A stretch of DNA of 64,000 nt, from NCBI GenBank assembly GCA_024449565.1, contig GCA_024449565.1_4810.1, one strand, 5' to 3'. The stretch is from a phage. The notes beneath the pieces are model-generated. The model did not search any database. It saw nothing but the letters and a program-made list of their open reading frames with translations, and was not told the origin of the DNA. Below are positions 23,365 through 45,207 of the stretch, in pieces (position 1 is the first letter of the stretch; every line of letters begins with the position of its first letter). The position numbers and the translations under genes are program-made.

Positions 23365-24012
23365 TTATCCTGTGGCCTGCATATTGCGTACATACTTCTG
23401 CTCTAATGAATAGATGAAGTCGGCGACAGTCAATCCCTTCGTGTGCCATTCATACATGGTGAAGCCTGTATTCAGGAAATAGCCGCGCACTTTATCCATT
23501 GCTTCAGCTTCCTCCATTGAAGCCATCAGCGCGGCGACGTTGTCATAAGAAGGCACAAATCCCTTCTTGCGTAGCGCATTGCGCAAATCTTTAGTTCTGA
23601 ATCCAATCTTGCAAGGGTCATCACGACCAGTAGATGATGCAACCTTTGGTAGCGCAAGGAACTCTTTAAGGAACATTGCAATGTTCAAGTCGCCTGCGTC
23701 ATCAAGCTTCTGGATTCGGTTGCGACCGCGACCCTTGAATTCACTTGCGCGAGGGTGAGTGCCAAAACAGTGCGCACCTTCCAGTTTAGGGTCGATGATC
23801 ATTACATCTTTACCAATGCGCAGCTCTACGTAGTAAAGATAAGACTCATCGACAAGCTTTGTACGCTTGCAAGTGATTGAGTCCTTATCATAACCAAAGC
23901 CACGCAACACGGTTGAAATCATCCGGTTCATTTCTTCGCCGTGAACATCACTTTCTTTGTTCAGTTCACCAAGATGTTGAAAGAATTTAGCGATGTTGAT
24001 TGCTTTATTCAT
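23365..24012 (-). CDS. hypothetical protein
   Basis: 215-aa ORF adjacent to the VirE-like gene. Confidence 0.45.
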   Translation of the reverse strand: MNKAINIAKFFQHLGELNKESDVHGEEMNRMISTVLRGFGYDKDSITCKRTKLVDESYLYYVELRIGKDVMIIDPKLEGAHCFGTHPRASEFKGRGRNRIQKLDDAGDLNIAMFLKEFLALPKVASSTGRDDPCKIGFRTKDLRNALRKKGFVPSYDNVAALMASMEEAEAMDKVRGYFLNTGFTMYEWHTKGLTVADFIYSLEQKYVRNMQATG

Positions 24013-28234: not shown

Positions 28235-28561
28235 ATGAACGAAAAAGAGACGAAGCAACGCGAACGTGCAACACACGTCGGAATCGTTGAGTCCTTCCTT
28301 AATACAAGATTGAATTCAAGCCTAACAATCATGCGATTCCTGGGTCAACCAGACAGAATCAAATTTATTTTTGCCGCAAATCCGGTATCGCTGTACATCC
28401 CTGTTGAATCCATGGCGTACTTAGTGCGCGACGAGAAAGGATGGAAGATACCAAACACAACTGTTTTCTTCAGTCATGTTGATGGTGAGATGTTTGAACG
28501 AAAAGAAGATTGCCATTTTATTCCAGTATATCTGGACCTTGACAGCGTAGTGGAGTTATAA
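28235..28561 (+). CDS. hypothetical protein
   Basis: First gene of the plus-strand replication operon. Confidence 0.45.
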   Translation: MNEKETKQRERATHVGIVESFLNTRLNSSLTIMRFLGQPDRIKFIFAANPVSLYIPVESMAYLVRDEKGWKIPNTTVFFSHVDGEMFERKEDCHFIPVYLDLDSVVEL

Positions 28562-29745
28562 TGAACATTCCAGAATTTAATGATGAGCCAGTGATTCAGT
28601 TTAACGCGCAACAAATCGATGCCATCGAGAAGGCCGTTGCATGGTACAAGCGGTTGCAGGACGGTAAAACGACGAAGCGTGTGTTTTTCATTGCTGGCTA
28701 TGCAGGGACTGGTAAAACCTCTATTGCTCGCGAGATTGTGCGTCGCTGTGTCGGTGAGTACGGCGCTATCTATATTGCGCCGACCGGAAAGGCTGCAAGC
28801 CGATTAAAGCAAAAAGGCTGTCGTGGCGCTAAGACCCTTCACCAGTTCATCTATAACGTGCGCGGCGTAAATGACGACAATGAGCCAATCTTTTCGAGAA
28901 AGTCAAAGCTGGATGAAAGGCCGCACCTTGTTGTACTCGATGAAGCGTCGATGGTTGGCGAGTGGGACACAGAGCGCCTTCTTGATCACCGCATCCCTGT
29001 CCTGGCATTAGGCGACATTGGACAAGTCCCTCCGGTAAAAGCCGCTGCCTACTTTACTGAAGATGCCGTTGACGTGCTGTTAACAGAAATCATGCGGCAA
29101 GGGAAAGAGTCCAATATAATCCGCGCCTCCTTCTTCGTGCGCCAAGGCAACCGCCTTCCTCCGCGTGAATACGATGACGTCAAAGTATTGGCAGAATCGC
29201 CGCGCGTTACTGCATTGAAGAAATTCATGGGCGAAGATGATCAAATTATTTGCTCCTATAATAGCACCAAAGATAAATGGAATTCGTTATTACGGCAAGT
29301 GAGCGGACGTATAACGCCAATGCCAGGAATCGGCGAGAAGGTTATTTGCACCTTCAACCAACACGGTCCAGGATTCTGTAATGGCGAGCAGGGGATTGTT
29401 ATTAGCTATGAGCCAGTGCCGGACTTTGAAAGGGATGAAGACGAGTCGAATGAAATGATGTATGTCAACTTGCGCTCATTGACTGATGGTAAAGATATAA
29501 AGGTAAAGATTAATCCTCTTTCCTTCTCTACTGATCAGGAAGTGCGCAAAGAAGCGCAACGTGCTGTTGGAGGCATGGACTATGGATATGTCATCACGGT
29601 GCACAAATCGCAAGGCAGCGAGTGGGACAATGTGTGCGTGCTGGAAGAAATCTTGCGCGGCGTTCCGTACTCCAAGATGATGTACACCGCAATCACCCGT
29701 GCCAAGAAGAATCTGACCGTGTACCGTGATTTGAAAGCGCGTTAA
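28561..29745 (+). CDS. dda: Dda/RecD-like superfamily 1 DNA helicase
   Basis: Walker A GYAGTGKT, Walker B VVLDEASMV, C-terminal VHKSQGSEWDNV and AITRAKKNLTV motifs. Confidence 0.8.
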   Translation: MNIPEFNDEPVIQFNAQQIDAIEKAVAWYKRLQDGKTTKRVFFIAGYAGTGKTSIAREIVRRCVGEYGAIYIAPTGKAASRLKQKGCRGAKTLHQFIYNVRGVNDDNEPIFSRKSKLDERPHLVVLDEASMVGEWDTERLLDHRIPVLALGDIGQVPPVKAAAYFTEDAVDVLLTEIMRQGKESNIIRASFFVRQGNRLPPREYDDVKVLAESPRVTALKKFMGEDDQIICSYNSTKDKWNSLLRQVSGRITPMPGIGEKVICTFNQHGPGFCNGEQGIVISYEPVPDFERDEDESNEMMYVNLRSLTDGKDIKVKINPLSFSTDQEVRKEAQRAVGGMDYGYVITVHKSQGSEWDNVCVLEEILRGVPYSKMMYTAITRAKKNLTVYRDLKAR

Positions 29746-29903: not shown

Positions 29904-30743
29904 ATGGCCGAAGCAATCAAAGTATTATCTAAAGAAGAAAAACAAGCCGCTGCAGCAGAACGTCGTCGCGTAGCTGAAGAAAAACGTTTGGCTAAAAAGA
30001 AAGAAGCCGAAGAAAAGCGCCAGAAGCGCGAACAGGAAAAACAAGCCAAGCGTGAAGAAGCCGCGCTGAAACGCAAGCAGGCTGCTGACGAGAAGGCTCA
30101 GAAGCGTGCTGAAGAAGCAGCTAAGAAAGCTAAAGAGCGTGCAGAAAAGGCCGCTGCTAAGAAAGCAGAGCGTGAAGCCGCTAAAGCAGCAAAAGAAATC
30201 GAAAAGGCAAAGGCTAAAGAAGAAGCCAAGCGCCTGAAAGCCGAGCAGGCTGCGGCCAAGAAAGCAGAGCGTGATCAAGCCCGTGCTGCAGCGAAGGCCG
30301 AAAAAGAGAAGGCCAAAGAAGAAGCTAAAGCGAAACGCAAGGCAGAGCGTGAAGCTGCTAAGATTGCGGCGAAAGAAGCTGCAGAACAGCAGAAAGAACA
30401 GCGTAAGAAAGAAGCTGAAGAACGTCGCAAAGCCATCGCAGAACGTAAGGCTGCTAAAAAGGCAAACGGTCAGCGTCGTGCAAAAGCCACTCACTTCATC
30501 TACACTGGCAATGGCCTGAGCCAGCCGCAAGAGCATTCCACCCGTGGACGCGTTCTGGCGGCGATCAAAGAAGGCGAAGTTGGCGTGGCACAGTCTATCG
30601 ATGAGCTGGGCGAAAAAGTTAAAGATCAACTGTTTGGCGCTTCCGTTCGCTCCTACCTGAGCAAGCTGGAAGAGATGGGACACATCGAGTTTGTCGATGT
30701 TGAATCCAACGACGATGCTGAAGACGGTGATCAAGCGGAATAA
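29904..30743 (+). CDS. Lys/Ala/Glu-rich low-complexity protein with structured C-terminal domain
   Basis: About 190 aa of KAE-rich sequence then an 85-aa C-terminal domain; preferred-codon usage unlike neighbours; own terminator. Confidence 0.55.
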   Translation: MAEAIKVLSKEEKQAAAAERRRVAEEKRLAKKKEAEEKRQKREQEKQAKREEAALKRKQAADEKAQKRAEEAAKKAKERAEKAAAKKAEREAAKAAKEIEKAKAKEEAKRLKAEQAAAKKAERDQARAAAKAEKEKAKEEAKAKRKAEREAAKIAAKEAAEQQKEQRKKEAEERRKAIAERKAAKKANGQRRAKATHFIYTGNGLSQPQEHSTRGRVLAAIKEGEVGVAQSIDELGEKVKDQLFGASVRSYLSKLEEMGHIEFVDVESNDDAEDGDQAE

Positions 30744-30877: not shown

Positions 30878-31873
30878 ATGAACATGAAACAACCTGTAAT
30901 GATTATCGGCGGCGGCTTGGCAGGACTTATTACCGCGTGTCACTTCCCGAACTCCATTGTGTACGAAGCAGGGGAACGAGCGCCACAGCACAAGGCGCTG
31001 CTACGCTTTCGCGGCGAAGAAGTAAGCCGTATTACCGGAATCCCTTTTAAGGCCGTGACAGTTGACAAGGCTGTGTATTTTCGCGGTAACTACTATAACG
31101 ACCATTGCCCAATCAACCTTGCCAATATGTATTCGATGAAGGTCACCAATCAGTTTGGTAGCCGTTCAATCATGAAGCTTAAAACTGCAACGCGTTATAT
31201 TGCGCCGGACGACTTCTATGATCAGCTTGTCGATAAACTGGGTGATCGCATATTCTTCAATACTCCGGTTGACACGCTTTGCGGCTATAGCGAGACGCCA
31301 ATCATCAATACATCGCCGCTGCCAGTCATGATGAAGCTGGCAGGAATTGATCAAAATATTGACTTTTCATTCGATAAAGCAAACATTCGCGTTTACCGCT
31401 TTAAGATTAAACGTAAGTGTGAACTGTATCAAACCATTTACTTTCCTGATTGCTCCGTCAGAACTTACCGTGCATCAATCACTGGCGACACATTGATCAT
31501 TGAAACAATTCCTTTGGTTAGCGTAAGTGAAGCCGCAGTTGAAGCCGCTGGCGGCATTACTCGTTACCGTGACATTAAGTTGCGTGCAGAAGTTGACGAA
31601 GTGTTGACGGCCTTTGGTCTTTCATGGAGTGACATTTCTCTCGAAGAAGTTGAAAAGGTCGACCAGAAGTATGGCAAGATTGTCGACATTCCGAAAGACT
31701 TGCGACACGCTCTACTCCTACAGCTGACCATGGATTTGAACGTATTCAGTGTCGGTCGATTCGCTACTTGGCGAAACATTTTGCTTGATGACGTTGCTCA
31801 TGACCTTGTTGAAGTTGAAAAACTCATCAAAGCAAATAACTATCAAAAATTTGCTTATATTGCTAATAAATAA
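30878..31873 (+). CDS. FAD/NAD(P)-binding Rossmann-fold oxidoreductase
   Basis: N-terminal dinucleotide-binding motif VMIIGGGLAGL; 331 aa. Confidence 0.45.
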   Translation: MNMKQPVMIIGGGLAGLITACHFPNSIVYEAGERAPQHKALLRFRGEEVSRITGIPFKAVTVDKAVYFRGNYYNDHCPINLANMYSMKVTNQFGSRSIMKLKTATRYIAPDDFYDQLVDKLGDRIFFNTPVDTLCGYSETPIINTSPLPVMMKLAGIDQNIDFSFDKANIRVYRFKIKRKCELYQTIYFPDCSVRTYRASITGDTLIIETIPLVSVSEAAVEAAGGITRYRDIKLRAEVDEVLTAFGLSWSDISLEEVEKVDQKYGKIVDIPKDLRHALLLQLTMDLNVFSVGRFATWRNILLDDVAHDLVEVEKLIKANNYQKFAYIANK

Positions 31874-32399: not shown

Positions 32400-33209
32400 A
32401 TGAAAGTTGAATTAATTCGATACACCCAAGATGCACTTGACCTTTTGCTGGAAACAAAGAACACGCGCATGACTGGTAAGCCAGTCTCTGAGATGACAGA
32501 ATCAGAGAAGCAAGAGCACTGGCGCTACATGCTTGATACAATCAAGTCTCCTTTTGACTTTGTGGACTATATCTTTGATATCACAGCTGTATCAAAGAAC
32601 ATGACCCATCAGATGGTACGCACACGCACAGGCGCATATCAAGAACGCACCAGCCGCGCTCAGGAGTCGTCTGCATTTGATGCGATTCGTCCGAAGGCAT
32701 TCGAGCACCCTTCTGACTGCAATGATGAAAATGCATTTGATGATGTGCACATAAGAAATCACTCATTGGCAGAGAAGTGGGATGATGCGATGGCCACGAT
32801 TGACGCTCTATACCAAGAGCTTCGCGCGGCTGGCGCAGAGATTCAAGATGCACGTGCCGTGTTGCCTTCTAATATGCAAACGCATATCATGGCAAAGTTC
32901 AACTTGCGCACTCTACAACAAATGGCCTCTAACCGCTTGTGCACGCGTACTCAAGGCGAGTATCAAGAAGTATTCCGTGCAATGGTTGCGGAAGTCCTTA
33001 AGGTGCACCCGTGGGCCAATCCTTTACTACAGCCGCAGTGCATCGGTATGGGTAAGTGTGCATTTCCTCGTCACGGTAAGGCCCATTGCCCATGGTATCG
33101 TGATTGGATGGATACGACTGCACAGCAAGAAGAATTGCGCATTCAGTTTTGGGATGCCGCGCCAATCACCAACAATCCAGTTGCTAAAGATGGAGTATCA
33201 AAAGGATGA
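32400..33209 (+). CDS. ThyX-like flavin-dependent thymidylate synthase homolog with non-canonical motif
   Basis: SPFDFVDYIFDI ... THQMVRTRTGAYQERTSR aligns with the ThyX core, but the RHR-X7-S signature reads RTR-X7-TS. Confidence 0.5.
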   Translation: MKVELIRYTQDALDLLLETKNTRMTGKPVSEMTESEKQEHWRYMLDTIKSPFDFVDYIFDITAVSKNMTHQMVRTRTGAYQERTSRAQESSAFDAIRPKAFEHPSDCNDENAFDDVHIRNHSLAEKWDDAMATIDALYQELRAAGAEIQDARAVLPSNMQTHIMAKFNLRTLQQMASNRLCTRTQGEYQEVFRAMVAEVLKVHPWANPLLQPQCIGMGKCAFPRHGKAHCPWYRDWMDTTAQQEELRIQFWDAAPITNNPVAKDGVSKG

Positions 33210-34143: not shown

Positions 34144-34827
34144 ATGAAAAAAGTAATTGTTGTAACTGGCTGCAATTCCGGTCTTGGTAAGTCCATTTTT
34201 GACACCCTTGGCGCTTACGGTCATGAAGTTGTCGGTATTGATTTGGAGAACGGCTATGACATCCGTAACGCGAAACAGATGAAAGAGCTTCTCTCTCAAT
34301 ACGACGTAGAAGGCTTGATCAACTGCGCTGGCGTCAACTCCAACAACTGGTTCGAAGATGTTAACTACGAAGAGTTCAATCGCGTTATGCACACCAACGC
34401 CTTCTCTTTCGTCAACACGACTCAGGCCGCGCTGAAAAGTCTTATTGACAACAAAGGTTTTGTGATCAACATCGTTTCCAACGCTGCGCATATTCCTATG
34501 ACGTCCAGCTTGTGTTATAATGCTTCCAAGGCTGCTGCGCTCATGATTAGCAAGCAGATGGCTCACGAGCTTACGCCTAAATACGGGATCACGGTATTCT
34601 CTATTAGTCCTAACAAGCTACGTGGTACTGGCATGTCCAAACAGATTGAAGATGCTGTTTGCGCGACTCGCGGCTGGACTCCTGAATACGCTGCTGAATA
34701 CCAGAAAAAGGCACTGATGAATGGATTGGAGACTGAGCCGCAAGTAATTGCTGACTTCATTCGCCATATCTTAATTACGGGCGCATGGCGCTTTATGTCT
34801 GGTACTGATATTCCATTTGGGAAATAA
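34144..34827 (+). CDS. short-chain dehydrogenase/reductase (classical SDR)
   Basis: TGCNSGLG cofactor motif, NCAG, and YNASK catalytic Tyr/Lys. Confidence 0.7.
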   Translation: MKKVIVVTGCNSGLGKSIFDTLGAYGHEVVGIDLENGYDIRNAKQMKELLSQYDVEGLINCAGVNSNNWFEDVNYEEFNRVMHTNAFSFVNTTQAALKSLIDNKGFVINIVSNAAHIPMTSSLCYNASKAAALMISKQMAHELTPKYGITVFSISPNKLRGTGMSKQIEDAVCATRGWTPEYAAEYQKKALMNGLETEPQVIADFIRHILITGAWRFMSGTDIPFGK

Positions 34828-35021: not shown

Positions 35022-35573
35022 ATGCCACATTTTAAAATTGAACAAATCGCCCTGTCAATCCCAGATGCTCAACGCGCTCAGGACTTCCTGGCTAAAATAG
35101 GCCTGACAGAATGGTTCCATGATCACGTTGTTGCTACTGGTCGCGTATTTGAAGCTGATTACTTTAAAGGTCAGCGCGGCGATTGCACCAATGAAGCTAA
35201 CTTGCGCTTCAACTATCAGGCTGGCAACGGTACTGATGGCGGCGCTGGTAAGCCTCTTGAGCTTGAAATCCTTGACTATACAAAAGGTTGCAACTGGATT
35301 CGCGAAAACATCGAATACATCGATGCGCACGACAATCAGGTTAGCCATCTTGGTATGCACGTGACTGCCGCTGAACTTGCTGAATGGCGCAAGTTCTTTA
35401 AAGAAGAAGGCATTCAGGTTGCGCAGGAAGTTGTGACCGACTCTCACACCAACCCAAACATTGCTGGTCAGCGTCGTTACAACTATGTAATCTTTGATAC
35501 GCGTGAAATCATCGGCGTTGATTTGAAGTTTATCGTGCGGTTGAATCAAGACGGTACTCCGTACACTGCATAA
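35022..35573 (+). CDS. VOC-family (glyoxalase/dioxygenase-like) protein
   Basis: Two beta-alpha-beta-beta-beta-like modules (KIEQIALSIPDAQRAQDFLAKIGL and HLGMHVTAAELAEWRKFF); AAGGAAA SD. Confidence 0.5.
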   Translation: MPHFKIEQIALSIPDAQRAQDFLAKIGLTEWFHDHVVATGRVFEADYFKGQRGDCTNEANLRFNYQAGNGTDGGAGKPLELEILDYTKGCNWIRENIEYIDAHDNQVSHLGMHVTAAELAEWRKFFKEEGIQVAQEVVTDSHTNPNIAGQRRYNYVIFDTREIIGVDLKFIVRLNQDGTPYTA

Positions 35574-35589
35574 CGAATCTTGAATCTGT

Positions 35590-35615
35590 GGCCGTCCTAA
35601 TGGGCGGCCTTTTTG
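35590..35615 (+). terminator. putative intrinsic terminator
   Basis: GGCCGTCC-TAAT-GGGCGGCC hairpin followed by TTTTT. Confidence 0.5.
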
Positions 35616-35627
35616 TAGGAGGCCAAT

Positions 35628-36170
35628 GTGTTATTTCTCCCTTATGACTTCGAAACAACAGGATTAACCGTGCACCCGAAAGCGCCGCTTGGAATGCAGC
35701 CGCGCCCTATTGAATTTGCAGGGTTGTTGACGGACGGCAAAGAGATTCTTGAAACGTTCGAGTTCATAATTAATCCTGAAATTGTGATTGAAGAAATCAT
35801 CACAAAGATTACCGGATTGACAAATGAAGACCTTGAGTGCAATCCACCATTCATCAATTTTGTCCCGCAGCTAAAAGAAATCTTCAAGAAGACGGATGCC
35901 ACTATCGCGCACAACCATGCGTTCGATAAAAACATTCTTGATTATGCACTACAGCGCGAAGGACTTACGCTTGATGATGTTAATTTTCCAGAAATAAACA
36001 TTTGTACAGTTGAGCAAACCTTGCCTATTTTTGGCCGAAGAGTTAAGCTTCAAGAGCTGTATGAATTATATTTCGGAAAATATGAACAGAAACACCGTGC
36101 ATTAGACGACGTAATATTACTGCACAAAGTCTGCCAACAAATTGGCGTATATGACATCTGGAGTAAATAA
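35628..36170 (+). CDS. DnaQ-like 3'-5' exonuclease (DEDDh)
   Basis: Exo I DFETTG, Exo II AHNHAFD, Exo III HRALDD; GGAGG SD; GTG start. Confidence 0.75.
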   Translation: MLFLPYDFETTGLTVHPKAPLGMQPRPIEFAGLLTDGKEILETFEFIINPEIVIEEIITKITGLTNEDLECNPPFINFVPQLKEIFKKTDATIAHNHAFDKNILDYALQREGLTLDDVNFPEINICTVEQTLPIFGRRVKLQELYELYFGKYEQKHRALDDVILLHKVCQQIGVYDIWSK

Positions 36171-39067
36171 TGTTTCCACAATTGAGAGTTCGCAGCGGTT
36201 ACACGTTCAAAGAAGTTTATGGACGGCATCCTGAAATTATAGCACGGCTCAAAGAGTTGGGCTGCGAAGTCGCGGCATTAGTTGATAACAACACATGGGG
36301 TCACGTTCGCTGGGAAAAGGAATGCCAGAAAAATGATATTAAGCCTATGTTTGGAATGGAGATTCCAATCATCGACCCTGATGCGGACCCGAAAAAGGGA
36401 TTCAAACCGAAGGCTTGGATATTGGCCCTTGACTTAAAATCTTTTTACAACGCTACAACACTTGCAACGCAGCGCGGTGGACTTACCCGTGCAGAGTTCG
36501 GTGCGCTTGATGGCGTCGTTAAATTCTGTGGCGGTGCCGTGGAGTTGCTGCGGCCAGAGGACTACGACTATATAGACGTCAACCCATCATCGTTCCTTTT
36601 GGCAAAGCGCCAGGCATTGGCTCATCGTAGCAGTGGAAGGCCGCTGGTTTTAACCGGATACAACCACATGCCTTCACCTGAGCACGTTGACTTTGCTTAT
36701 GCGTGGGAAGTGCGCGACACGGTCAAGCCGCACTGCATCGTTGACGCGGAAGACTTGCGAAAACAGCTTAAAGGCATCTTGACTGAAGATGAACTTGATC
36801 AGGCAACGGCCAATGCTGTTGACATAGCAAACGGCATAGTCGGACTTGACCTGAAATTACGCAAGGCACCGATTATTCACCTTGCTGGTGACATGGTAAA
36901 GCTTGCTCGCGAGGGTATGGAGTACCGTCTAAAAGCAGGTCACATCAAAGAATGGACTCAGGAATACGAGGACCGCTTCAACGAAGAAATTCACCAGATT
37001 CAGCTGAAAGATTTCGACTCATACTTTCTGGTGGTAGCGGACCTTGTACGATTCGCAAAAACAAAAATGCTCGTCGGTCCTGCGCGCGGCTCATCGGCTG
37101 GTTCACTTGTTTGCTATTGCCTCGGCATCACGGAAGTGGACCCAATCCCGTATAAGCTGCTGTTTGCCCGATTCATCGACGTAAGCCGCGCCGACCTTCC
37201 TGACATCGACATCGACTTTGAAGATACCAAACGCTATATGGTGTTTGATTATCTTAAAGAGAAATATGGCGAAATGAACGTTGCAAAGCTTGGCAACATC
37301 AACACGCTTAAGGCCAACTCAGTAATGGCTCAGGTTGGTAAGAAGTTCAACATTGGATATCACGAAACAGCCAACATCAAAAACGCATTGCTTGAATACT
37401 CATCCGGTGACGCCCGTTATGGTCACGGTCTGGAGGATACCTTTGCAACAACGACCACGGGCCAAGAGTTCGTGGCGAAATATCCTGACGCCGCGCGATG
37501 CATGGGTGACCTTGAGATTCACCCTTCCCACACTGGCGTTCACGCAGCGGGAATCATTGTGTGTAATGACCCAATCTCTGATTACTGTACTGTAACTGCA
37601 GAAGGGATTGCGCAAATCGATAAGCCTGACAGCGAATACCTCAACCTTTTGAAGCTTGATGCGCTGGGCCTTCGTACTCTCGGTATTATTTCTGATACAG
37701 GCGTTATTGATGCTGAAACGCTCTACGGAATCAAGCTTGATGATCAAAGCGTCCTTGACATTCTTAACGAAAACAAGATGTCAGGCATCTTCCAGTTTGA
37801 AGGTGATGCTGTACGCTCAGTAACAAACTTTGTTCATGTCGATAACTTTAACAAAATCGACAACCTGACAGCTTTGGGTCGACCTGGCCCGTTGTCATCC
37901 GGTATGGCCCAGAAATACATTGAACGCGCGGCAGGGCGTGCGCCGATTGAATACGACGTGCCGCAGCTTGAGCCGTACTTAAAAGAGACTTACGGCGTGT
38001 TTCTTTACCAAGAGCAAATCATGGCCGTGGTTAAAGAGATTGGTTCATTTGACTGGGCGAAAACGTCCGCTGTGCGTAAGGCGATGTCAGGCCGTAAGGG
38101 TGAAGAATACTTTAACAAGCTTGGCGAGGACTTTGTTGCAGGCGCAATCAATAACGGCGTACCGGAAGCGGATGCAAGAAAGCTTTGGCAAGCAATGGCT
38201 ACGTTCGGGTCATGGGGCTTTAACAAGTCGCACTCCGTGTCATACGCGGTCGTGACCTACTGGACATTGTGGCTTAAGCGACACTACCCGTTGGAATTTG
38301 CCGCTGCCTGCTTACGCGCTGCTAAGGACGAAGACCAGACGATTGCGATATTACGTGAACTTGCGAAGGAAGGCGTGGATTACGTTCCAATCGACCCTGA
38401 TCACTCTTCGATGAACTGGACCATCGCGAACGGAAAGCTAATCGGCGGCATTATGAACGCGAAAGGGTACGGAATGGTGAAGGCGATGAAGTACATCGAA
38501 GCGCGTGAAGCCGGAACCTTAACGCAGAAGCAAAAGGACGCATTGGCCAATGCTGAAGTAAAATATGGCGACCTTACAGAGATGCACACAAAGTTCGGCT
38601 GGGCGTATAATGACCCGTATCTGATTGGCGTGACGTCCGGCGCTTCAATACGCCAGATGAAGGAAGTCGGTGATGACGAGCGCGCAATAGTAATCGGCAA
38701 GTTGACAAAGAAAGTGCTTGCGGACGAGAACGAAGCAACACGCATCCGTAAACGACTTGAGCGCGGCATCTATACAAAGCAAGGCAAGCTTAAAAAGGGT
38801 CTTCAAGCTGATGGCCGCTACGCAGAGTTTGACCAGTACGGGAACAAGCTTGAGACTCAGTTCATCGACCTTATGTGCAAAGACGACTCGACCGACTCGC
38901 CAATGCGCTTCAGGATTCGTCCAGAGAAGTTCCAGAAGTACGGGAAGTACATCGCTGAAAACGTCGGGAACGGCGCATTCTTCCTGATGAAAGGTCGTAA
39001 GCTTGAAGGCATTGACATGTTCATCGTTGACGTGATCAAACAGGTGTATCCAGATGGCAACAAATAA
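36170..39067 (+). CDS. dnaE: DNA polymerase III alpha-type (DnaE family) replicative polymerase
   Basis: N-terminal PHP-like region; GPARGSSAGSLVCYCLGITEVDP ... DIDIDF matches the DnaE catalytic core. Confidence 0.9.
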   Translation: MFPQLRVRSGYTFKEVYGRHPEIIARLKELGCEVAALVDNNTWGHVRWEKECQKNDIKPMFGMEIPIIDPDADPKKGFKPKAWILALDLKSFYNATTLATQRGGLTRAEFGALDGVVKFCGGAVELLRPEDYDYIDVNPSSFLLAKRQALAHRSSGRPLVLTGYNHMPSPEHVDFAYAWEVRDTVKPHCIVDAEDLRKQLKGILTEDELDQATANAVDIANGIVGLDLKLRKAPIIHLAGDMVKLAREGMEYRLKAGHIKEWTQEYEDRFNEEIHQIQLKDFDSYFLVVADLVRFAKTKMLVGPARGSSAGSLVCYCLGITEVDPIPYKLLFARFIDVSRADLPDIDIDFEDTKRYMVFDYLKEKYGEMNVAKLGNINTLKANSVMAQVGKKFNIGYHETANIKNALLEYSSGDARYGHGLEDTFATTTTGQEFVAKYPDAARCMGDLEIHPSHTGVHAAGIIVCNDPISDYCTVTAEGIAQIDKPDSEYLNLLKLDALGLRTLGIISDTGVIDAETLYGIKLDDQSVLDILNENKMSGIFQFEGDAVRSVTNFVHVDNFNKIDNLTALGRPGPLSSGMAQKYIERAAGRAPIEYDVPQLEPYLKETYGVFLYQEQIMAVVKEIGSFDWAKTSAVRKAMSGRKGEEYFNKLGEDFVAGAINNGVPEADARKLWQAMATFGSWGFNKSHSVSYAVVTYWTLWLKRHYPLEFAAACLRAAKDEDQTIAILRELAKEGVDYVPIDPDHSSMNWTIANGKLIGGIMNAKGYGMVKAMKYIEAREAGTLTQKQKDALANAEVKYGDLTEMHTKFGWAYNDPYLIGVTSGASIRQMKEVGDDERAIVIGKLTKKVLADENEATRIRKRLERGIYTKQGKLKKGLQADGRYAEFDQYGNKLETQFIDLMCKDDSTDSPMRFRIRPEKFQKYGKYIAENVGNGAFFLMKGRKLEGIDMFIVDVIKQVYPDGNK

Positions 39068-39476
39068 CCGTGAGCAGAAATACATATTCGTGCCTTTGAA
39101 GAAGCATTCAGAATCGGTATTGAAGCTTCAACGAATCGAGTCGATGACTGGTGATGGCGTGCCGGACGTAATCGGCACCAACCGGAAAGGGCGCGGCTTT
39201 TGGCTTGAAATGAAGTTCTTTGAATCGTGGCCTGCAAGGGCCACCACTGCACCTTTTAGAAATGCATTTGAGAAAGGCCAATGCAGCTTTCTTTCTTCGT
39301 GGAATGATTGGAAATACCCATCATTTGTTCTGCTTAAGGTTGATTCTGAGAAGATGTTTTATTTAGTCCACCCTTCTATTGAATTAAAGCGTTATAATAT
39401 TGCAGACGTTCAACGTGAGATAATCGTGAAGGGAACTATTCATCACATCATCAAGTATTTAGAGGAATTGTCATGA
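39054..39476 (+). CDS. VRR-NUC / PD-(D/E)xK-like nuclease
   Basis: GVPDVIG ... FWLEMKF resembles the PD ... E-x-K motif; upstream partner of the SNF2 helicase. Confidence 0.5.
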   Translation: MATNNREQKYIFVPLKKHSESVLKLQRIESMTGDGVPDVIGTNRKGRGFWLEMKFFESWPARATTAPFRNAFEKGQCSFLSSWNDWKYPSFVLLKVDSEKMFYLVHPSIELKRYNIADVQREIIVKGTIHHIIKYLEELS

Positions 39477-40996
39477 AAACACAAGGGATGCGCCACCAAT
39501 TATTGGCGCTTGATAAAGCAGGTCGCAGAAAATACTTTGCTTATTTTATGGAGCAGGGTCTTGGCAAAACCTGGACTGCTTTGGCAGAGTTTGAAAAACA
39601 CTTCGCCGCTGGCGCATTTGATGCCATGGTTATCATCGCTCCTAACGGTGTACACTCAAACTGGATTCGCCGTGAAGCACCAGAGCACCTTTCCATCAAA
39701 TGGATTGGTCATTACTGGCGCGGCAATGACAAGATGAAAACTAAAAAGGGCAAAGCAATTTGGGAGAAGATGTTTGCTGATCACTATCCTGAAGGTGAAG
39801 TGCCTGCGCGCATCTTCTCATTCAACATTGACACGGTGAATACGCCAGTCGGTTATCAACACATCGAATCGGTCCTGAAGAAGTATCGCTGTTTGATGAT
39901 CATTGATGAATCGACGCGTATCAAAAATAACACAGCCAAACGCTCCATCAAGGTTGTAGAATTGGGACGGCTGGCAAAGGCCCGTCGAATCCTTTCTGGC
40001 ACGCCGCTGCCACGCTCGCCTGCTGATATTTACATGCAGTATCACTTCCTTGAAGCTGGCTTGCTTGGCACCAAATCGTTCCGTGCATTCAACTCTGAAT
40101 TCACAGTACTGCTTGAAGCGCACGACCCAGAGATGCAGGCCATTCTCAAGAAAATCGGCGGCAACGGTTATGGCATTCCGCAAGTGCCGCGCAAAGACCA
40201 GTTTGGTCGACCGATGTACAAAAACCTTGACAAGCTTATCCGGCTGATGGAGCCGCACTATTTCCGCGCGACAAAAGCGGAATACTTGCCGGACCTTCCA
40301 GAGAAGGTGTACAAGTTTATCGACTTCGAGTTGTCGCCTAAGCAGCGCGATGTCTACGATGAACTCAAGAATGAGTACAACTATCTGATGGAGTACAAAG
40401 GGGAAGAAGAAAACGTTAAGTTTGAGATGATCGCATCTCGCACTAAGATGAAGCAGGTGACATCAGGCTTTGTTAAGGTATATGATGAGATGGTCTACAT
40501 GGAAGACAACCCACGATTCACAGCCTTTAAGGATTATGTGGAAGGGGTGCTGGAAGACGACCCAGAGCGCAAATTCATTGTTTGGGCCATCTTTAAGGAA
40601 GAGATGAACCAGATTAAGGACTGGCTTGAGTCTGAAGGCGTGGTCACTGGTGTGTATAACGGTGAGACATCAAAAGAGCAGCGTGAGTTCTTGATTGATG
40701 ATTTCCAGAAGAACACAGTCGAGAACGGTGGGACGCAAGTGTTGGTTTGTCACGCTGCAGCGGCAGGCATCGGGATCACGCTTACCGCCGCCGACTTGGC
40801 AATCTATTATTCTTGCAACTATGACAACGAGTTGCGCAAACAATCCGAAGACCGAAATCACCGCATCGGCACCAAATCAAGCGTGTTGTATGTTGATTTT
40901 ATTGGGGTTGATACCATCGACGAAGAAATTCAGCGTTCATTAAGTATGAAGTCTATGCTTGCTGATCACATCCTCGACGGCAAAAAGATGAATTAA
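39473..40996 (+). CDS. SNF2-family helicase/ATPase
   Basis: Motif I QGLGKT, motif II IIDESTRIKN, C-terminal motif VI QSEDRNHRIGT. Confidence 0.75.
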   Translation: MKTQGMRHQLLALDKAGRRKYFAYFMEQGLGKTWTALAEFEKHFAAGAFDAMVIIAPNGVHSNWIRREAPEHLSIKWIGHYWRGNDKMKTKKGKAIWEKMFADHYPEGEVPARIFSFNIDTVNTPVGYQHIESVLKKYRCLMIIDESTRIKNNTAKRSIKVVELGRLAKARRILSGTPLPRSPADIYMQYHFLEAGLLGTKSFRAFNSEFTVLLEAHDPEMQAILKKIGGNGYGIPQVPRKDQFGRPMYKNLDKLIRLMEPHYFRATKAEYLPDLPEKVYKFIDFELSPKQRDVYDELKNEYNYLMEYKGEEENVKFEMIASRTKMKQVTSGFVKVYDEMVYMEDNPRFTAFKDYVEGVLEDDPERKFIVWAIFKEEMNQIKDWLESEGVVTGVYNGETSKEQREFLIDDFQKNTVENGGTQVLVCHAAAAGIGITLTAADLAIYYSCNYDNELRKQSEDRNHRIGTKSSVLYVDFIGVDTIDEEIQRSLSMKSMLADHILDGKKMN

Positions 40997-41070: not shown

Positions 41071-41334
41071 ATGGTACGCATCCTTGAACGTTACAAAAAT
41101 GAATCTACTGGCGCAATCGCTTTCAAACGTCTTTTGGTCAAAGAAATTGACGGTATGTTCCGCGTTGTTAAAGAGTTTGATTATGGCAACGGTGCTGGGG
41201 TGAATACCGTTATTATGCCTGGTATCAAGGCATATAAAACATTAAAAGGCGCTGAGAAGGCTTTGGCGGCTTGGAAGTCTGAACGTTATCAAATGACCCG
41301 TGTTGAAGGTCTAATGCAAGAAGGTAAAATATGA
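41071..41334 (+). CDS. hypothetical protein
   Basis: 87-aa ORF after promoter; AGAGGAA SD. Confidence 0.45.
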   Translation: MVRILERYKNESTGAIAFKRLLVKEIDGMFRVVKEFDYGNGAGVNTVIMPGIKAYKTLKGAEKALAAWKSERYQMTRVEGLMQEGKI

Positions 41335-41582
41335 GCAACAAAGTATTGTTAATTGGTCCGCCAGCTTGCGGCAAAACGACTAGCGCAAAGAATATTGCTG
41401 AAGTCATGGGATTGAATAACATTTACGACATAGGAAAGGGTGGAGAAGACAATTTTAAGTCCGCACTCAAAGATGACAAGGAAGGTCTTTATGTCACTGT
41501 GAAATTACCGCGCGGCATTCGCCGTGAACAATTTGATATTGTAATTGAAGTCAACAGAGGATTTATCGATGTCAGATATTAA
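41331..41582 (+). CDS. small P-loop NTPase-like protein
   Basis: Walker A GPPACGKTT near N-terminus; only 83 aa. Confidence 0.35.
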   Translation: MSNKVLLIGPPACGKTTSAKNIAEVMGLNNIYDIGKGGEDNFKSALKDDKEGLYVTVKLPRGIRREQFDIVIEVNRGFIDVRY

Positions 41583-42126
41583 TTGGGAAGATGATTTGCC
41601 GCAGGTTGCTCCTGAGAGCATTCAAGAGCGCCTTGCGCGCTTAGTATCGGAATTGGCAGAACGCCAAGAAGCTTTGACAGAGCTTGAAGATGAAGCTGAT
41701 ATGCAAAAGCAGCGCATCAGTGAAATCAAAACTGTTCTGCTTCCTGGTGTTATGGATGAGCTTGGCGTGTCCGAAATCAAGCTTGAAGACAAGACCAAAA
41801 TCAAGGTCGAGTCAAAAGTGAATGCTTCAATCAAGAAAGAAAACGAATTAAAAGTTTTCGATTGGCTTGTCAACAACGGTTACGGCGGCCTGATCAAGTC
41901 CAGCGTCACGGCTGAGTTCGGTCGCGAAGAAATCGAACAGGCGCAAGAGATTGTTGCCGCACTGCGTGAAGATGGTGTTGAAGCCACATTGAAACAAGGC
42001 GTTCATTCTGCTACACTGAAGTCGTTTGTAAAAGAACAGCTGGAAGCAGGCAATCCAGTTAGTGAAGATATTAGCGTTTTTGAATACAAAGAAGCTAAAA
42101 TAACCTTGCCTAAAAGCAAAAAGTAA
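41569..42126 (+). CDS. hypothetical coiled-coil protein
   Basis: Start trimmed to ATG MSDINWEDD with AGAGGA SD. Confidence 0.4.
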   Translation: MSDINWEDDLPQVAPESIQERLARLVSELAERQEALTELEDEADMQKQRISEIKTVLLPGVMDELGVSEIKLEDKTKIKVESKVNASIKKENELKVFDWLVNNGYGGLIKSSVTAEFGREEIEQAQEIVAALREDGVEATLKQGVHSATLKSFVKEQLEAGNPVSEDISVFEYKEAKITLPKSKK

Positions 42127-42185
42127 TTTAACCTTTATCTTGAAATCAGGTTGCCACGAAACTTGATACTATAGGAAAATATCAA

Positions 42186-43046
42186 ATGTCTAAGAAAGAA
42201 ACTACCGAAGTTGCAGCGAAAAACACCCAGATGTCCGCTATGGCTGATTTTGTCGACATGACCGATTTTGGCGCTGGTTTTGAAGGTGCCGATGCCGATG
42301 CGTATGCCATTCCTTTTATCGTCGTACTGCAAAAGATGTCTCCGATGGTCGACGAAGATGATCCAAAACACGTGCCTGGCGCAAAAGCTGGTATGCTGTA
42401 CAACACCGTTACTGGTGAGTTGTATGACGGCAAGAAAGGCGTGCAGATCATCCCTTGTGCATTCAAACGCACCTTCATCCTTTGGGGCGGTCGCGAGTCC
42501 GACGATAAAGGCTTTAAAGGTGAATTCACCAAAGAGCACGTTGATGCAGAAGTCGCGGCAGGCCGCGCTGTTGAAATCAACGGTAAGGTGTTTGTTCCAG
42601 ACGAAAACGGCAAAGTGCACGAGAAAAAATCTCCTTACTATGCAGATACACGTAACCACTTCGTCATTCTGTTGAATGAAGAAACGGGTGAATTTGGCAG
42701 CGCCATGTTGTCTTTGACTTCTTCAATGATCAAGCCGTCTCGAATGCTGATGACCGCGCTACAGCAGAAGAAAGTTCAGACTCCGCAAGGTCTGAAAACG
42801 CCGCCGACCTTTATGAACATCGTTCGCATGGGTGCTGCATCCCAGTCCAAAGACGGCAACACCTGGTCCGTTCTGAAGTTTGAGCTGGAAGGTCTGGTGC
42901 AGGACAAAGGTCTGTACGAAGTCGCCAAAGCATTCCACAACGACGTGGTTGGCGGCAACGTTAACATTGACCGCAGCAAGCAGGAAGAAGCAAGCGGTGC
43001 CGCTGGTCCTGTCAATGAAACTCCGACCGACGCAGAAGAGTTTTAA
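42186..43046 (+). CDS. putative ssDNA-binding protein (acidic C-terminal tail ending in Phe)
   Basis: C-terminus ...NETPTDAEEF resembles the acidic F-terminated tails of T7 gp2.5, T4 gp32 and bacterial SSB; weak evidence. Confidence 0.3.
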   Translation: MSKKETTEVAAKNTQMSAMADFVDMTDFGAGFEGADADAYAIPFIVVLQKMSPMVDEDDPKHVPGAKAGMLYNTVTGELYDGKKGVQIIPCAFKRTFILWGGRESDDKGFKGEFTKEHVDAEVAAGRAVEINGKVFVPDENGKVHEKKSPYYADTRNHFVILLNEETGEFGSAMLSLTSSMIKPSRMLMTALQQKKVQTPQGLKTPPTFMNIVRMGAASQSKDGNTWSVLKFELEGLVQDKGLYEVAKAFHNDVVGGNVNIDRSKQEEASGAAGPVNETPTDAEEF

Positions 43047-44244: not shown

Positions 44245-45207
44245 ATGACAGCATTAAAACCAATGAAGGGTTGCCAACGTAAGCAGATTATCGAGCGCGG
44301 CGAAGATGTGCCGCTGCCTTGCGGACTTTCATTCAAGGTCGATGGCATACGCGCAATGGCGTATGACAACTTGCCAATGGGCACATCCGGCATGGCGCTG
44401 AGAAACGTTCAAATCAAAAAAGAGTTCCTCTTTTTGGGTGAACTAATTCACGGACTTGATGGAGAGCTAATCGACGGCAATCCAAATGACAAGAACGTCA
44501 TGCAACAGGCCTATACTGCATGCATGAATACTGATGCAATCACTAACTTTACATGGTGGGTGTTTGATGACTTCAGCGACCCTGATTTGCCTTTTGAAAA
44601 GCGTTATGCAAACTATCGAGCTAGAGTTGCTGAAGTTAATCAACATCTCATCAACCATGGTCGACGCCCATTCCTTCGCGCTCTCGAATATCGCAACATC
44701 GAAAATATGGAGCAGTACGCGGCAATGCAAATCGAAGCAGACCAGCTTGGCTATGAAGGCTTGTATGGCAAGTCTTGGACGGGCAAATACAAGCATGGCC
44801 GCGCAACGCCAAAGTCACGTGATGTGTGGAAGGACAAGCCGTGGACAGATGAAGAAGGGTTGATCATAGACTTCGTTGAGATGATGGAGAACAACAACGA
44901 AGCATTCATTGACGAATTGGGTCGCACCAAGCGTTCAAAAGAGGCTGAAGGCTTAGTTGCAAAAGGATACCTTGGATCATTTGTAGTTGTCAATCCAAAA
45001 TATGTTGATGAGAAAGGTGAAATGATTCCTTTCCGCGTCTCCGCTGGTTCAATGCCTATGGCAGAGAGAAAAATGCTTTGGGAGAATCGCGAGAATTATC
45101 GAAACAAGTATTTGACATATAAATTCTTTAACTTTGGCATAGTTGACGTGCCGCGCTCTGCCTTGTATAAGTGCTTCCGTGATATTACCGATATGGAGTA
45201 TTTTTAA
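44245..45207 (+). CDS. ATP-dependent DNA ligase
   Basis: Motif I KVDGIR (adenylation Lys), later EGLIID and EGLVAKG motifs; 320 aa. Confidence 0.75.
   Translation: MTALKPMKGCQRKQIIERGEDVPLPCGLSFKVDGIRAMAYDNLPMGTSGMALRNVQIKKEFLFLGELIHGLDGELIDGNPNDKNVMQQAYTACMNTDAITNFTWWVFDDFSDPDLPFEKRYANYRARVAEVNQHLINHGRRPFLRALEYRNIENMEQYAAMQIEADQLGYEGLYGKSWTGKYKHGRATPKSRDVWKDKPWTDEEGLIIDFVEMMENNNEAFIDELGRTKRSKEAEGLVAKGYLGSFVVVNPKYVDEKGEMIPFRVSAGSMPMAERKMLWENRENYRNKYLTYKFFNFGIVDVPRSALYKCFRDITDMEYF

What the first reader, a model, noticed from the sequence alone, without database searches (positions are those of the whole stretch)
35628..39067. Phage-encoded DnaE-type polymerase with a separate DnaQ-like proofreading exonuclease
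A full-length DnaE-family polymerase (965 aa) is preceded, with a TAATG overlap, by a stand-alone DEDDh exonuclease. Together with the prim-pol, VirE-like ATPase, Dda helicase, SSB-like protein and ligase this forms a largely host-independent replisome, noteworthy in a genome of this size class.
Basis: partly seen in the sequence, partly recalled or inferred. Interest (0 to 1): 0.4.

Follow-up and report, generated by a model that had tools for sequence, protein, structure and literature searches.

The report
Phage DnaE polymerase with separate exonuclease
This E. coli phage (genus Wifcevirus) carries its own bacterial-type DNA polymerase and, overlapping it, a small exonuclease gene that most likely supplies proofreading; both genes are real and look active, but the pair is already annotated in near-identical published phages, so it is ordinary.

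Summary
Both ORFs exist exactly as described: a 180-aa DEDDh exonuclease (35628-36170) and a 965-aa DnaE-type polymerase (36170-39067), joined by a TAATG overlap. All catalytic residues are present in both.

The window is a Wifcevirus, a ~68-kb E. coli myovirus 97.8% identical to phage Bas101. GenBank records and a 2020 paper already call these genes "DNA polymerase III alpha subunit" and "DEDDH exonuclease". Related phages such as Pbunavirus share the gene order. DnaE homologues occur in 1214 of 50,697 phage records.

New detail from this work:
- The polymerase's PHP domain is shortened and has lost at least six of its nine metal ligands.
- The exonuclease gene lies upstream in 77 of 80 related viral loci.
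- Four other phage lineages whose DnaE has an intact PHP have no such exonuclease nearby. This is the complementarity known from bacteria, and it supports a proofreading role in trans.

"Full-length" and "largely host-independent" are overstated. The polymerase has no tau-binding tail and no recognisable clamp-binding motif. The exonuclease has no epsilon-type tether. I found no clamp, clamp loader or SSB.

Verdict: real, active-looking, already known. Interest is low.

The parts
35590..35609 (+). Terminator-like hairpin (GGCCGTCC-TAAT-GGGCGGCC followed by TTTTTG) between the upstream VOC-fold gene and the exonuclease gene
   Evidence: This is a consensus match only; function was not shown.
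35617..35622 (+). AGGAGG ribosome-binding site, 5 nt upstream of the GTG start of the exonuclease gene
   Evidence: Read directly from the sequence.
35628..36170 (+). Stand-alone DEDDh 3'-5' exonuclease, 180 aa, consisting of the catalytic domain only. Catalytic codons: D7 35646-48, E9 35652-54, D100 35925-27, H156 36093-95, D161 36108-10.
   Evidence: Pfam RNase_T 9.6e-22. phrog_192 'DNA polymerase exonuclease subunit' 2.3e-37. Alignment to E. coli epsilon. The five catalytic residues are invariant in 71 unique family members.
36170..39067 (+). C-family (DnaE-type) DNA polymerase, 965 aa. Catalytic codons: D345 37202-04, D347 37208-10, D497 37658-60.
   Evidence: Pfam. phrog_405 4.6e-271. TIGR00594 superfamily, 475 bits against a cut-off of 434. 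PDB sequence hits to Taq, E. coli and Mtb DnaE, about 1e-85. AF2 model pLDDT 84.6; Foldseek TMq 0.70-0.76 to DnaE1 structures.
36170..36889 (+). Shortened, degenerate PHP domain (aa 1-240). The nine canonical metal-ligand columns read R6 R8 E15 N40 E64 K81 G122 Y164 H166.
   Evidence: Alignment A5 with E. coli DnaE and four phage DnaE that have canonical PHP. R6 and R8 are conserved in 35 and 34 of the 37 family members. The Pfam PHP hit is marginal.
36896..38158 (+). Palm/thumb (aa 243-500) and fingers (aa 519-663) domains
   Evidence: Pfam DNA_pol3_alpha and DNA_pol3_finger. R306-G307-S308, R334, K495 and H688 match E. coli R362-G363-S364, R390, K553 and H760.
38432..39046 (+). C-terminal region. 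It holds an HhH-like segment (aa ~755-785), a conserved helical linker, and an OB-like fold (aa 838-959) with a basic loop insertion (aa ~856-896). No tau-binding domain follows, and no Q[LAIV]x[LMI]F motif is present.
   Evidence: AF2 secondary structure is beta-beta-beta-alpha-beta-beta. Local Foldseek matches to OB proteins appear at ranks 49-50. Family alignment and motif scan.
39054..39476 (+). 140-aa protein overlapping the polymerase 3' end by 14 nt. It is possibly a PD-(D/E)XK-type nuclease, judged from the motif GVPDVIG...WLEMK.
   Evidence: phrog_2165 4.1e-35. No Pfam or PDB sequence match. The nuclease reading is inference from the motif only. The gene is conserved downstream of the polymerase in many related loci.
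39473..40996 (+). SNF2-family ATPase/helicase, 507 aa, overlapping the previous gene by 4 nt. It is the last gene of the overlapping four-gene string.
   Evidence: Pfam SNF2-rel_dom 8.4e-22 and Helicase_C 5.8e-11. It is found downstream in most related loci.
35022..35573 (+). 183-aa VOC-fold (glyoxalase/methylmalonyl-CoA-epimerase-like) protein, frequently conserved immediately upstream of the exonuclease. Whether it belongs to the module is uncertain.
   Evidence: Found upstream in about 45 of 80 loci at 44-63% identity. AF2 pLDDT 93. Foldseek best hit 3gm5, E 1e-7. Weak Pfam Glyoxalase_4 hit.

Best explanation
The two overlapping genes encode the catalytic core of the phage's own replicative DNA polymerase.

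The 965-aa protein is a compact C-family (DnaE-type) polymerase. Its domains run: degenerate PHP, palm, thumb, fingers, HhH, OB.

The 180-aa protein is a minimal DEDDh 3'-5' exonuclease. It most likely acts in trans as the proofreader, because the polymerase's own PHP domain has lost its metal site and cannot do this job.

The one-base TAATG overlap couples their translation. They head a string of four overlapping genes: exonuclease, polymerase, a 140-aa protein, and an SNF2 ATPase.

Shown here: both active sites are intact, the PHP site is degenerate, and gene linkage is conserved across a large phage family.

Inferred: the two proteins associate physically, the exonuclease edits the polymerase's errors, and this polymerase replicates the phage genome from primers made by the phage's AEP-type primase.

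Unknown: how a tether-less exonuclease docks on the polymerase, and what gives processivity. No clamp gene and no clamp-binding motif were found.
For: Active sites:
- Polymerase D345/D347/D497, plus R306-G307-S308, R334, K495 and H688, match the E. coli alpha active-site residues. They are invariant in a 37-member family alignment.
- The exonuclease DEDDh residues match epsilon. They are invariant in 71 unique relatives.

Fold:
- The AF2 model has pLDDT 84.6 and pTM 0.77. It superposes on full-length Taq, Mtb and E. coli DnaE1 with TMq 0.70-0.76, better than on PolC at 0.64.

PHP domain:
- The nine ligand columns read RRENEKGYH instead of HHDHEH[C/H]DH.
- R6 and R8 are conserved across the family.

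Linkage:
- The exonuclease gene lies upstream on the same strand in 77 of 80 IMG/VR loci, even where polymerase identity falls to 34-38%.
- In 42 of those loci the genes overlap or are 30 nt or less apart.

Comparative test:
- Four other phage DnaE lineages (Gordonia Turuncu, Mycobacterium Cuke, Microbacterium Kate, Bacillus Riggi) have all nine PHP ligands and no DEDDh gene within 4 kb.
- Bacteria show the same pattern of inactive PHP paired with a separate DnaQ (PMC3919608, PMC12926913).

Other:
- It is the only DNA polymerase annotated in the near-identical complete genome.
- The polymerase is only 30% identical to host DnaE, so it is not a recent host acquisition.
Against: - There is no direct evidence that the two proteins bind each other or that the exonuclease edits polymerase errors.
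- The exonuclease lacks epsilon's C-terminal alpha-binding segment and clamp-binding motif, so the known docking mode cannot apply.
- No natural exonuclease-polymerase fusion appeared among the 150 best cluster representatives or among the long polymerase relatives checked.
- In 20 of 77 loci, more than 150 nt separates the two genes.
- The comparative PHP/exonuclease test rests on only four outgroup phages. In those, only 4 kb on each side was searched.
- No processivity factor was identified.
Confidence: 0.72

Rival explanations
1. The exonuclease is not a polymerase subunit. It would work independently, for example in host DNA or RNA degradation for nucleotide salvage, in end processing during recombination or repair, or in primer or flap removal. 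It would sit next to the polymerase only because early or middle replication genes are co-expressed.
For: It lacks any epsilon-type tether. It fails all curated dnaQ models; its best NCBIfam matches are generic 'DEDD exonuclease domain' and PolC-type exonuclease models. PADLOC shows only the generic DEDDh domain. In 20 of 77 loci other DNA separates the two genes. Nucleotide-metabolism genes (ThyX, PNKP-like, MazG) lie in the same region.
Against: The gene keeps its position directly upstream of the polymerase across relatives whose polymerase identity is as low as 34%. PHP-intact phage DnaE lineages lack it nearby. PHROG 192, which it matches at 2.3e-37, groups proteins annotated as polymerase exonuclease subunits.
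Confidence: 0.15
2. The phage core is not autonomous. The phage alpha-exonuclease pair plugs into host factors (beta clamp, clamp loader, SSB) through non-canonical contacts, so replication remains strongly host-dependent.
For: No clamp, clamp loader or SSB was detected in the window or annotated in the complete Bas101 genome. The part of the genome outside the window holds only head genes. The polymerase keeps the HhH and OB domains that flank the clamp-binding site in E. coli alpha.
Against: No Q[LAIV]x[LMI]F motif occurs in any of 37 family polymerases, and there is no tau-binding domain. The same polymerase family occurs in phages of very different hosts (Escherichia, Pseudomonas, Xanthomonas, Burkholderia, Luteibacter and marine metagenomes), which argues against a host-specific clamp contact. 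Earlier surveys also found viral C-family polymerases without clamps (PMC3201878).
Confidence: 0.25
3. The polymerase is a repair or translesion enzyme (DnaE2-like), or an inactive homologue, and the host Pol III replicates the phage genome.
For: It falls below every DnaE equivalog cut-off, for example 495.7 bits against 1002 for NF004226. It also has a degenerate PHP, as DnaE2 does (PMC3919608).
Against: It scores higher against the DnaE1-type model (495.7 bits) than against the error-prone DnaE2 model (331 bits). All catalytic residues are present and invariant in the family. No ImuA or ImuB partners are present. The gene is embedded among primase, helicase and ligase genes, linked to a proofreading-type exonuclease, and is the only polymerase in the genome.
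Confidence: 0.04

Closest known systems
Annotated 'DNA polymerase III alpha subunit' + 'DEDDH exonuclease' of Wifcevirus phages (vB_Eco4M-7, WFC, FEC19, Bas98-101, TH35)
   Same: These are the same genes. DNA identity is 94-97.8% over the whole 3440 nt and the polymerase is up to 99.7% identical in amino acids. The CDS boundaries are the same in Bas101. The pair is listed in Necel et al. 2020 (PMC7048862).
   Different: Nothing substantive differs. None of these records or papers analyses the domains, the PHP site or the mode of coupling, and no biochemistry was found.
Pbunavirus (PB1-like) and related ~65-73 kb myoviruses of Pseudomonas, Pantoea, Serratia, Xanthomonas, Burkholderia and Luteibacter
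   Same: The polymerase is orthologous at 57-69% identity. The gene order is the same: ThyX, PNK-like, ~184-aa protein, Pol III alpha, ~136-aa protein, helicase, as in phage DRL-P1 (PMC8481504).
   Different: In Pbunavirus the exonuclease is often annotated 'hypothetical', and the VOC-fold gene was not found upstream (L012). The Pbunavirus polymerase carries a ~70-aa coiled insertion after the HhH. The Wifcevirus polymerase instead has a longer basic insertion in the OB loop.
E. coli Pol III core (alpha-epsilon-theta)
   Same: Both have a C-family polymerase with an inactive PHP domain plus a separately encoded DEDDh exonuclease. All catalytic residues are shared. The folds are alike, with TMq about 0.7.
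   Different: Identity is only 30% for alpha and 26% for epsilon. The phage exonuclease lacks epsilon residues ~181-243, which hold the clamp-binding motif, the Q-linker and the alpha-binding helix. The phage polymerase lacks QADMF and the tau-binding domain. No theta, clamp or clamp loader is present. In the phage the two genes are adjacent and overlapping, whereas in E. coli they are unlinked.
DnaE-like polymerases of actinobacteriophages and Bacillus phages (e.g. Turuncu, Cuke, Kate, Riggi)
   Same: These are phage-encoded C-family polymerases, 30-37% identical over the palm and fingers.
   Different: They keep all nine PHP metal ligands and have no DEDDh gene within 4 kb. Proofreading is presumably intrinsic to PHP, as in Mycobacterium tuberculosis DnaE1. 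Some are split into two CDSs.
PolC of Firmicutes
   Same: It is a C-family polymerase that uses a DEDDh exonuclease. The phage exonuclease's best solved relative is the Thermotoga PolC exonuclease domain, 2p1j, E 4e-6.
   Different: In PolC the exonuclease is inserted inside the PHP domain of one polypeptide and the OB domain is N-terminal. The phage polymerase model fits DnaE1 better than PolC, with TMq 0.70-0.76 against 0.64.

Membership tests
C-family DNA polymerase (Pol III alpha superfamily, TIGR00594) | Score above the curated superfamily cut-off | tested here: met
   TIGR00594 scores 475.2 bits against a cut-off of 434.35. Pfam DNA_pol3_alpha 3e-63 and DNA_pol3_finger 1e-37.
C-family DNA polymerase (Pol III alpha superfamily, TIGR00594) | Three catalytic aspartates in the palm (E. 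coli D401, D403, D555) | tested here: met
   D345, D347 and D497 align to them. They are invariant in 37 relatives.
C-family DNA polymerase (Pol III alpha superfamily, TIGR00594) | Overall fold: N-terminal PHP, palm, thumb, fingers, HhH, C-terminal OB (DnaE order) | tested here: met
   AF2 model pLDDT 84.6. Foldseek to 2hpi, 7pu7, 3e0d and 5fku gives E about 1e-45 and TMq 0.70-0.76. The OB assignment rests on predicted secondary structure and weak local matches.
DnaE1 (replicative alpha subunit orthologue, NF004226/PRK05673) | Score above the equivalog cut-off | tested here: not met
   495.7 bits against a cut-off of 1002. All other DnaE equivalog models also fall below their cut-offs.
DnaE1 (replicative alpha subunit orthologue, NF004226/PRK05673) | Internal beta-clamp-binding motif (E. 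coli 920-QADMF-924) and C-terminal tau-binding domain | tested here: not met
   No Q[LAIV]x[LMI]F occurs in the window protein or in 36 relatives. The protein ends directly after the OB fold.
PHP-proofreading DnaE (active PHP exonuclease, as in M. tuberculosis DnaE1) | Nine metal ligands HHDHEH[C/H]DH | tested here: not met
   The nine columns read R6 R8 E15 N40 E64 K81 G122 Y164 H166 in alignment A5. The criterion is from PMC12926913.
DEDDh exonuclease superfamily (Pfam RNase_T, PF00929) | Pfam gathering score and the five residues D-E-D-H-D in Exo motifs I-III | tested here: met
   78.7 bits against a cut-off of 24. D7, E9, D100, H156 and D161 are present and invariant in 71 relatives.
DnaQ / Pol III epsilon subunit (TIGR01406, TIGR00573, NF004316) | Score above the curated cut-offs | tested here: not met
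   TIGR01406 scores 43.8 against 222.7. TIGR00573 scores 37 against 71.5. NF004316 scores 36.6 against 196. No E. coli epsilon structure was hit at E 1e-3 or better.
DnaQ / Pol III epsilon subunit (TIGR01406, TIGR00573, NF004316) | C-terminal segment that binds the alpha PHP domain, preceded by a clamp-binding motif | tested here: not met
   The protein ends about 19 residues after the last catalytic Asp. Epsilon residues ~181-243 have no counterpart. Family members are 174-207 aa.
DnaQ / Pol III epsilon subunit (TIGR01406, TIGR00573, NF004316) | Physical complex with the polymerase and proofreading of its errors | not testable with these tools
   Only indirect support exists: conserved adjacency and complementarity with PHP loss. 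No multimer prediction tool was available.

The most novel reading that the evidence does not exclude
The phage pair may be a minimal, clamp-independent C-family replicase. In it, a tether-less 180-aa DEDDh exonuclease would dock directly on the shortened, metal-free PHP domain, whose conserved R6/R8 replace the HxH ligands. That would be a mode of alpha-epsilon assembly different from the E. coli C-terminal-tether mode. Processivity would come from the basic insertion in the OB loop or from another phage protein. One candidate is the strongly conserved VOC-fold protein encoded just upstream in about half of the related loci.
Probability: 0.25. Interest if true: 0.45.

Novelty: already known. 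Interest (0 to 1): 0.15.

Why it matters
As a discovery it matters little. The genes are already annotated in near-identical GenBank phages and named in the literature, and phage DnaE homologues are common (2.4% of phage records).

Its residual value is as a model system. No member of this large phage DnaE family appears to have been studied biochemically. The family pairs a bacterial-type polymerase that has lost its PHP proofreader with a bare exonuclease domain that has no known docking segment, and no clamp is present.

Working out how the two associate, and how processivity is achieved, would show a second solution to assembling a C-family replicase core. This holds for phages reported to complete a cycle in about 10 minutes. 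It concerns therapeutic phage groups (Pbunavirus, Wifcevirus).

Tried and rejected
- Clamp-binding motif. I scanned the window polymerase and 36 relatives for Q[LAIV]x[LMI]F and inspected the aligned C-termini. None was found. The pairwise MAFFT alignment places E. coli QADMF over the first OB strand (KLTK), which I regard as a misalignment.

- Natural exonuclease-polymerase fusions as evidence of interaction. None appeared among the 150 best exonuclease cluster representatives. The over-long polymerase relative P0099 has an intein, not a fused exonuclease.

- Clamp, clamp loader or SSB in the window. Pfam, PHROGs and NCBIfam scans of 30 ORFs of the window, 28 of them on either side of the polymerase (21.6-45.9 kb), gave none. 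Two weak 'clamp loader' PHROG hits (the Dda helicase, and an 83-aa P-loop ORF) are just Walker-A similarity. The likeliest candidate is the 279-aa Lys/Ala/Glu-rich protein with an acidic tail at 29904-30743, which has no OB-fold signal.

- Defence or anti-defence role for the exonuclease. PADLOC gave only the generic DEDDh domain model.

- The 140-aa downstream protein. It has no Pfam or PDB sequence match even at E 5 or below. The PD-(D/E)XK reading is motif-based only.

- PHP ligand mapping. My first mapping of the last two PHP ligands, from the pairwise E. coli alignment A1, was shifted by two residues. It was replaced by the multi-sequence alignment A5.

- Complex prediction. A multimer or fusion structure prediction was not possible with the tools and input restrictions.
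Full report
**Observation.** The window has a 180-aa ORF at 35628..36170 (+, GTG start) and a 965-aa ORF at 36170..39067 (+). The sequence reads ...AGTAAATAATGTTT.... An AGGAGG site sits 5 nt before the GTG. A G+C-rich hairpin followed by a T run (35590-35609) lies just upstream.

Pfam assigns the first protein to RNase_T/DEDDh exonucleases (9.6e-22). It assigns the second to PHP (marginal: 26.6 bits against 26.4), DNA_pol3_alpha (3e-63) and DNA_pol3_finger (1e-37).

**What the window is.** The 3440-nt stretch is 94-97.8% identical to about 29 Escherichia/Shigella phages of the genus Wifcevirus, including Bas98-101, vB_Eco4M-7, WFC, FEC19 and TH35. In those records the same two CDSs are annotated as 'DNA polymerase / DNA polymerase exonuclease subunit' or as 'DNA polymerase III alpha subunit / DEDDH exonuclease'.

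The window covers all of the ~68.7-kb Bas101 genome except roughly 6.7-10.7 kb, which holds head genes. Necel et al. [quoted passage not shown] Humolli et al. 2025 describe the genus, and its distant kinship to Pbunavirus, without discussing the polymerase (PMC11990801). The Pbunavirus DRL-P1 gene table shows the same order: ThyX, PNK-like, 184-aa 'hypothetical', Pol III alpha, 136-aa protein, helicase (PMC8481504).

**The polymerase.** The E. coli alignment is 30% identical. It matches D401/D403/D555 to D345/D347/D497. It also matches R362-G363-S364, R390, K553 and the steric-gate H760 to R306-G307-S308, R334, K495 and H688. All are invariant in 37 relatives at 57-86% identity.

Sequence search of the PDB hits Taq, E. 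coli and M. tuberculosis DnaE at about 1e-85 over residues 240-798. An AlphaFold2 model (pLDDT 84.6, pTM 0.77) superposes on full-length DnaE1 structures with TMq 0.70-0.76. It fits PolC less well, at 0.64.

After the fingers come an HhH-like segment (about 755-785), a conserved helical linker, and a beta-beta-beta-alpha-beta-beta OB-like domain (838-959). The first OB loop carries a basic insertion, which is longer in Wifcevirus than in relatives. The protein ends there. It has no tau-binding domain, and neither it nor any of 36 relatives has a Q[LAIV]x[LMI]F clamp-binding motif.

NCBIfam places it in the Pol III alpha superfamily (TIGR00594, 475 bits against 434). It falls far below the DnaE equivalog threshold (495.7 against 1002). 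It is closer to the DnaE1 model than to the DnaE2 model (331 bits) or to PolC.

**The PHP domain.** I aligned the N-terminus with E. coli DnaE and with four phage DnaE that carry the canonical HHDHEH[C/H]DH ligands. At those nine columns the window protein reads R6, R8, E15, N40, E64, K81, G122, Y164, H166. It also lacks about 50 residues in the middle of the domain. R6 and R8 are conserved in 35 and 34 of the 37 family members. By the criterion of Timinskas et al. and the 2026 survey (PMC3919608, PMC12926913), this PHP is inactive as an exonuclease.

**The exonuclease.** D7, E9, D100, H156 and D161 align with epsilon D12, E14, D103, H162 and D167. They are invariant in 71 unique relatives extracted from viral contigs.

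The protein is only the catalytic domain. It stops about 19 residues after the last Asp, and relatives are all 174-207 aa. Epsilon's clamp-binding motif, Q-linker and alpha-binding helix are absent.

It fails all curated dnaQ models. Its only solved sequence relative at E 1e-3 or better is the Thermotoga PolC exonuclease domain. A whole-library search found 474 clusters at E 1e-10 or better. The best 150 are almost all stand-alone proteins of about 180 aa, and none is fused to a polymerase. So it is 'DnaQ-like' only at the superfamily level.

**Linkage.** I used the polymerase family alignment to fetch 80 IMG/VR loci and searched them with the window proteins.
- The exonuclease gene lies upstream on the same strand in 77 loci.
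- Of the other three, two contigs end at or inside the polymerase gene. The third (L042) has only 680 nt upstream, with no match.
- In 42 of the 77 the genes overlap or lie 30 nt or less apart. In 20 they are more than 150 nt apart.
- Linkage persists where polymerase identity is only 34-38%.

As a control, I examined four phage lineages with DnaE-like polymerases outside this family: Gordonia Turuncu, Mycobacterium Cuke, Microbacterium Kate and Bacillus Riggi. All have the nine PHP ligands intact and no DEDDh homologue within 4 kb. This small sample reproduces the bacterial rule that a separate DEDDh proofreader accompanies an inactivated PHP. It is the best available argument that the exonuclease is the polymerase's proofreader. 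Physical association and editing remain inferred.

**Context and the 'host-independent replisome'.** These genes are confirmed:
- a RepB-type AEP primase (26992-28074, -)
- a VapE/VirE-like ATPase (24012-25682, -)
- a Dda-like SF1 helicase (28561-29745, +)
- an SNF2 ATPase (39473-40996, +)
- an ATP-dependent ligase (44245-45207, +)
- ThyX, a PNKP-like phosphatase and a MazG-like protein

I found no clamp, clamp loader or SSB in the window, and none is annotated in the complete Bas101 genome.

Kazlauskas and Venclovas (PMC3201878) showed that 40-140-kb dsDNA viruses often encode their own polymerase, rarely of the C-family (28 of 808 genomes), and typically without a clamp. They also noted that the region after the fingers in viral C-family enzymes is unlike E. 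coli's. In today's phage collection, 1214 of 50,697 records have a homologue of this polymerase. The arrangement is therefore typical rather than noteworthy for its size class, and 'largely host-independent' goes beyond the evidence.

**Verdict.** The finding is real, and its core interpretation is right. It is an active-looking phage DnaE-type polymerase with a linked, active-looking DEDDh exonuclease that most probably proofreads in trans because the PHP site is dead.

It is already known at the level of annotation and literature, so novelty is 'already known' and interest is low (0.15). What remains open is mechanistic: how a tether-less exonuclease engages the polymerase, and what provides processivity without a clamp or clamp-binding motif. 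That is the most novel reading not excluded here (probability about 0.25).

Noticed in passing
window 35022-35573 (+): A 183-aa VOC-fold protein. AF2 pLDDT is 93, and the best structural match is a methylmalonyl-CoA-epimerase-like protein, 3gm5. It is encoded immediately upstream of the exonuclease in about 45 of 80 related viral loci. It is 44-63% identical even where the polymerase is only ~37% identical, so it is better conserved than either replication protein, and it sometimes overlaps the exonuclease start. It has no PHROG or NCBIfam match. Q8, E80, E82, H109, H113 and H142 are invariant. Function unknown.
   Followed up: partly
window 35628-40996 (+): Four consecutive genes overlap one another: exonuclease/polymerase by 1 nt, polymerase/140-aa protein by 14 nt, and 140-aa protein/SNF2 ATPase by 4 nt. 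This suggests one translationally coupled unit. The 140-aa protein (phrog_2165, mislabelled 'DNA helicase') has a PD-(D/E)XK-like motif GVPDVIG...WLEMK but no Pfam or PDB sequence match.
   Followed up: partly
relatives P0099 (1215 aa) and P0115 (1232 aa, Pfam intein hit) of the window polymerase; insertion point corresponds to window ~38222-38233: P0099 carries a ~255-aa insertion with intein features, including an HNH-like CxxC...H segment. It sits exactly inside the conserved GFNK|SHS active-site motif, next to the steric-gate His. P0115 is of similar length and has a Pfam intein match, but its insertion site was not examined. The window protein has no intein.
   Followed up: partly
window 29904-30743 (+): A 279-aa protein. 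Its first ~190 residues are almost entirely Lys/Ala/Glu/Arg (histone-H1-like or coiled-coil composition). A small globular C-terminal domain and an acidic tail (ESNDDAEDGDQAE) follow. It matches phrog_4765 (unknown function) and has no Pfam hit.
   Followed up: partly
window 30878-31873 (+): A 331-aa protein with an N-terminal GGGLAGL dinucleotide-binding (Rossmann, FAD/NAD-type) motif. It has no Pfam or NCBIfam match and matches phrog_4828 (unknown function). It lies just upstream of the flavin-dependent thymidylate synthase ThyX (32400-33209). An SDR-family reductase (34144-34827) lies nearby. This may be a nucleotide-modification or redox module.
   Followed up: no
window 41331-41582 (+): An 83-aa ORF that consists of little more than a Walker-A P-loop (LIGPPACGKTT). 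It is far too short for a complete NTPase domain. It gives weak hits to AAA and clamp-loader-like profiles through the P-loop only.
   Followed up: no
window 41545-43046 (+): Two conserved proteins match the recently defined Pfam families 'Pam3 gp33-like' (DUF7307, 3e-37) and 'Pam3_Gp34' (2e-85). They lie downstream of the SNF2 gene, between the replication and lysis genes. Function unknown.
   Followed up: no
window 38735-38857 (polymerase aa ~856-896): The first loop of the C-terminal OB-like domain is strongly basic across the family (consensus RIKKRGGK..KG). In Wifcevirus it carries an extra ~25-aa insertion (LERGIYTKQGKLKKGLQADGRYAEFDQYGNKLE). It is modelled at low confidence, with pLDDT about 52-64. 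It is a candidate DNA-contact element.
   Followed up: no
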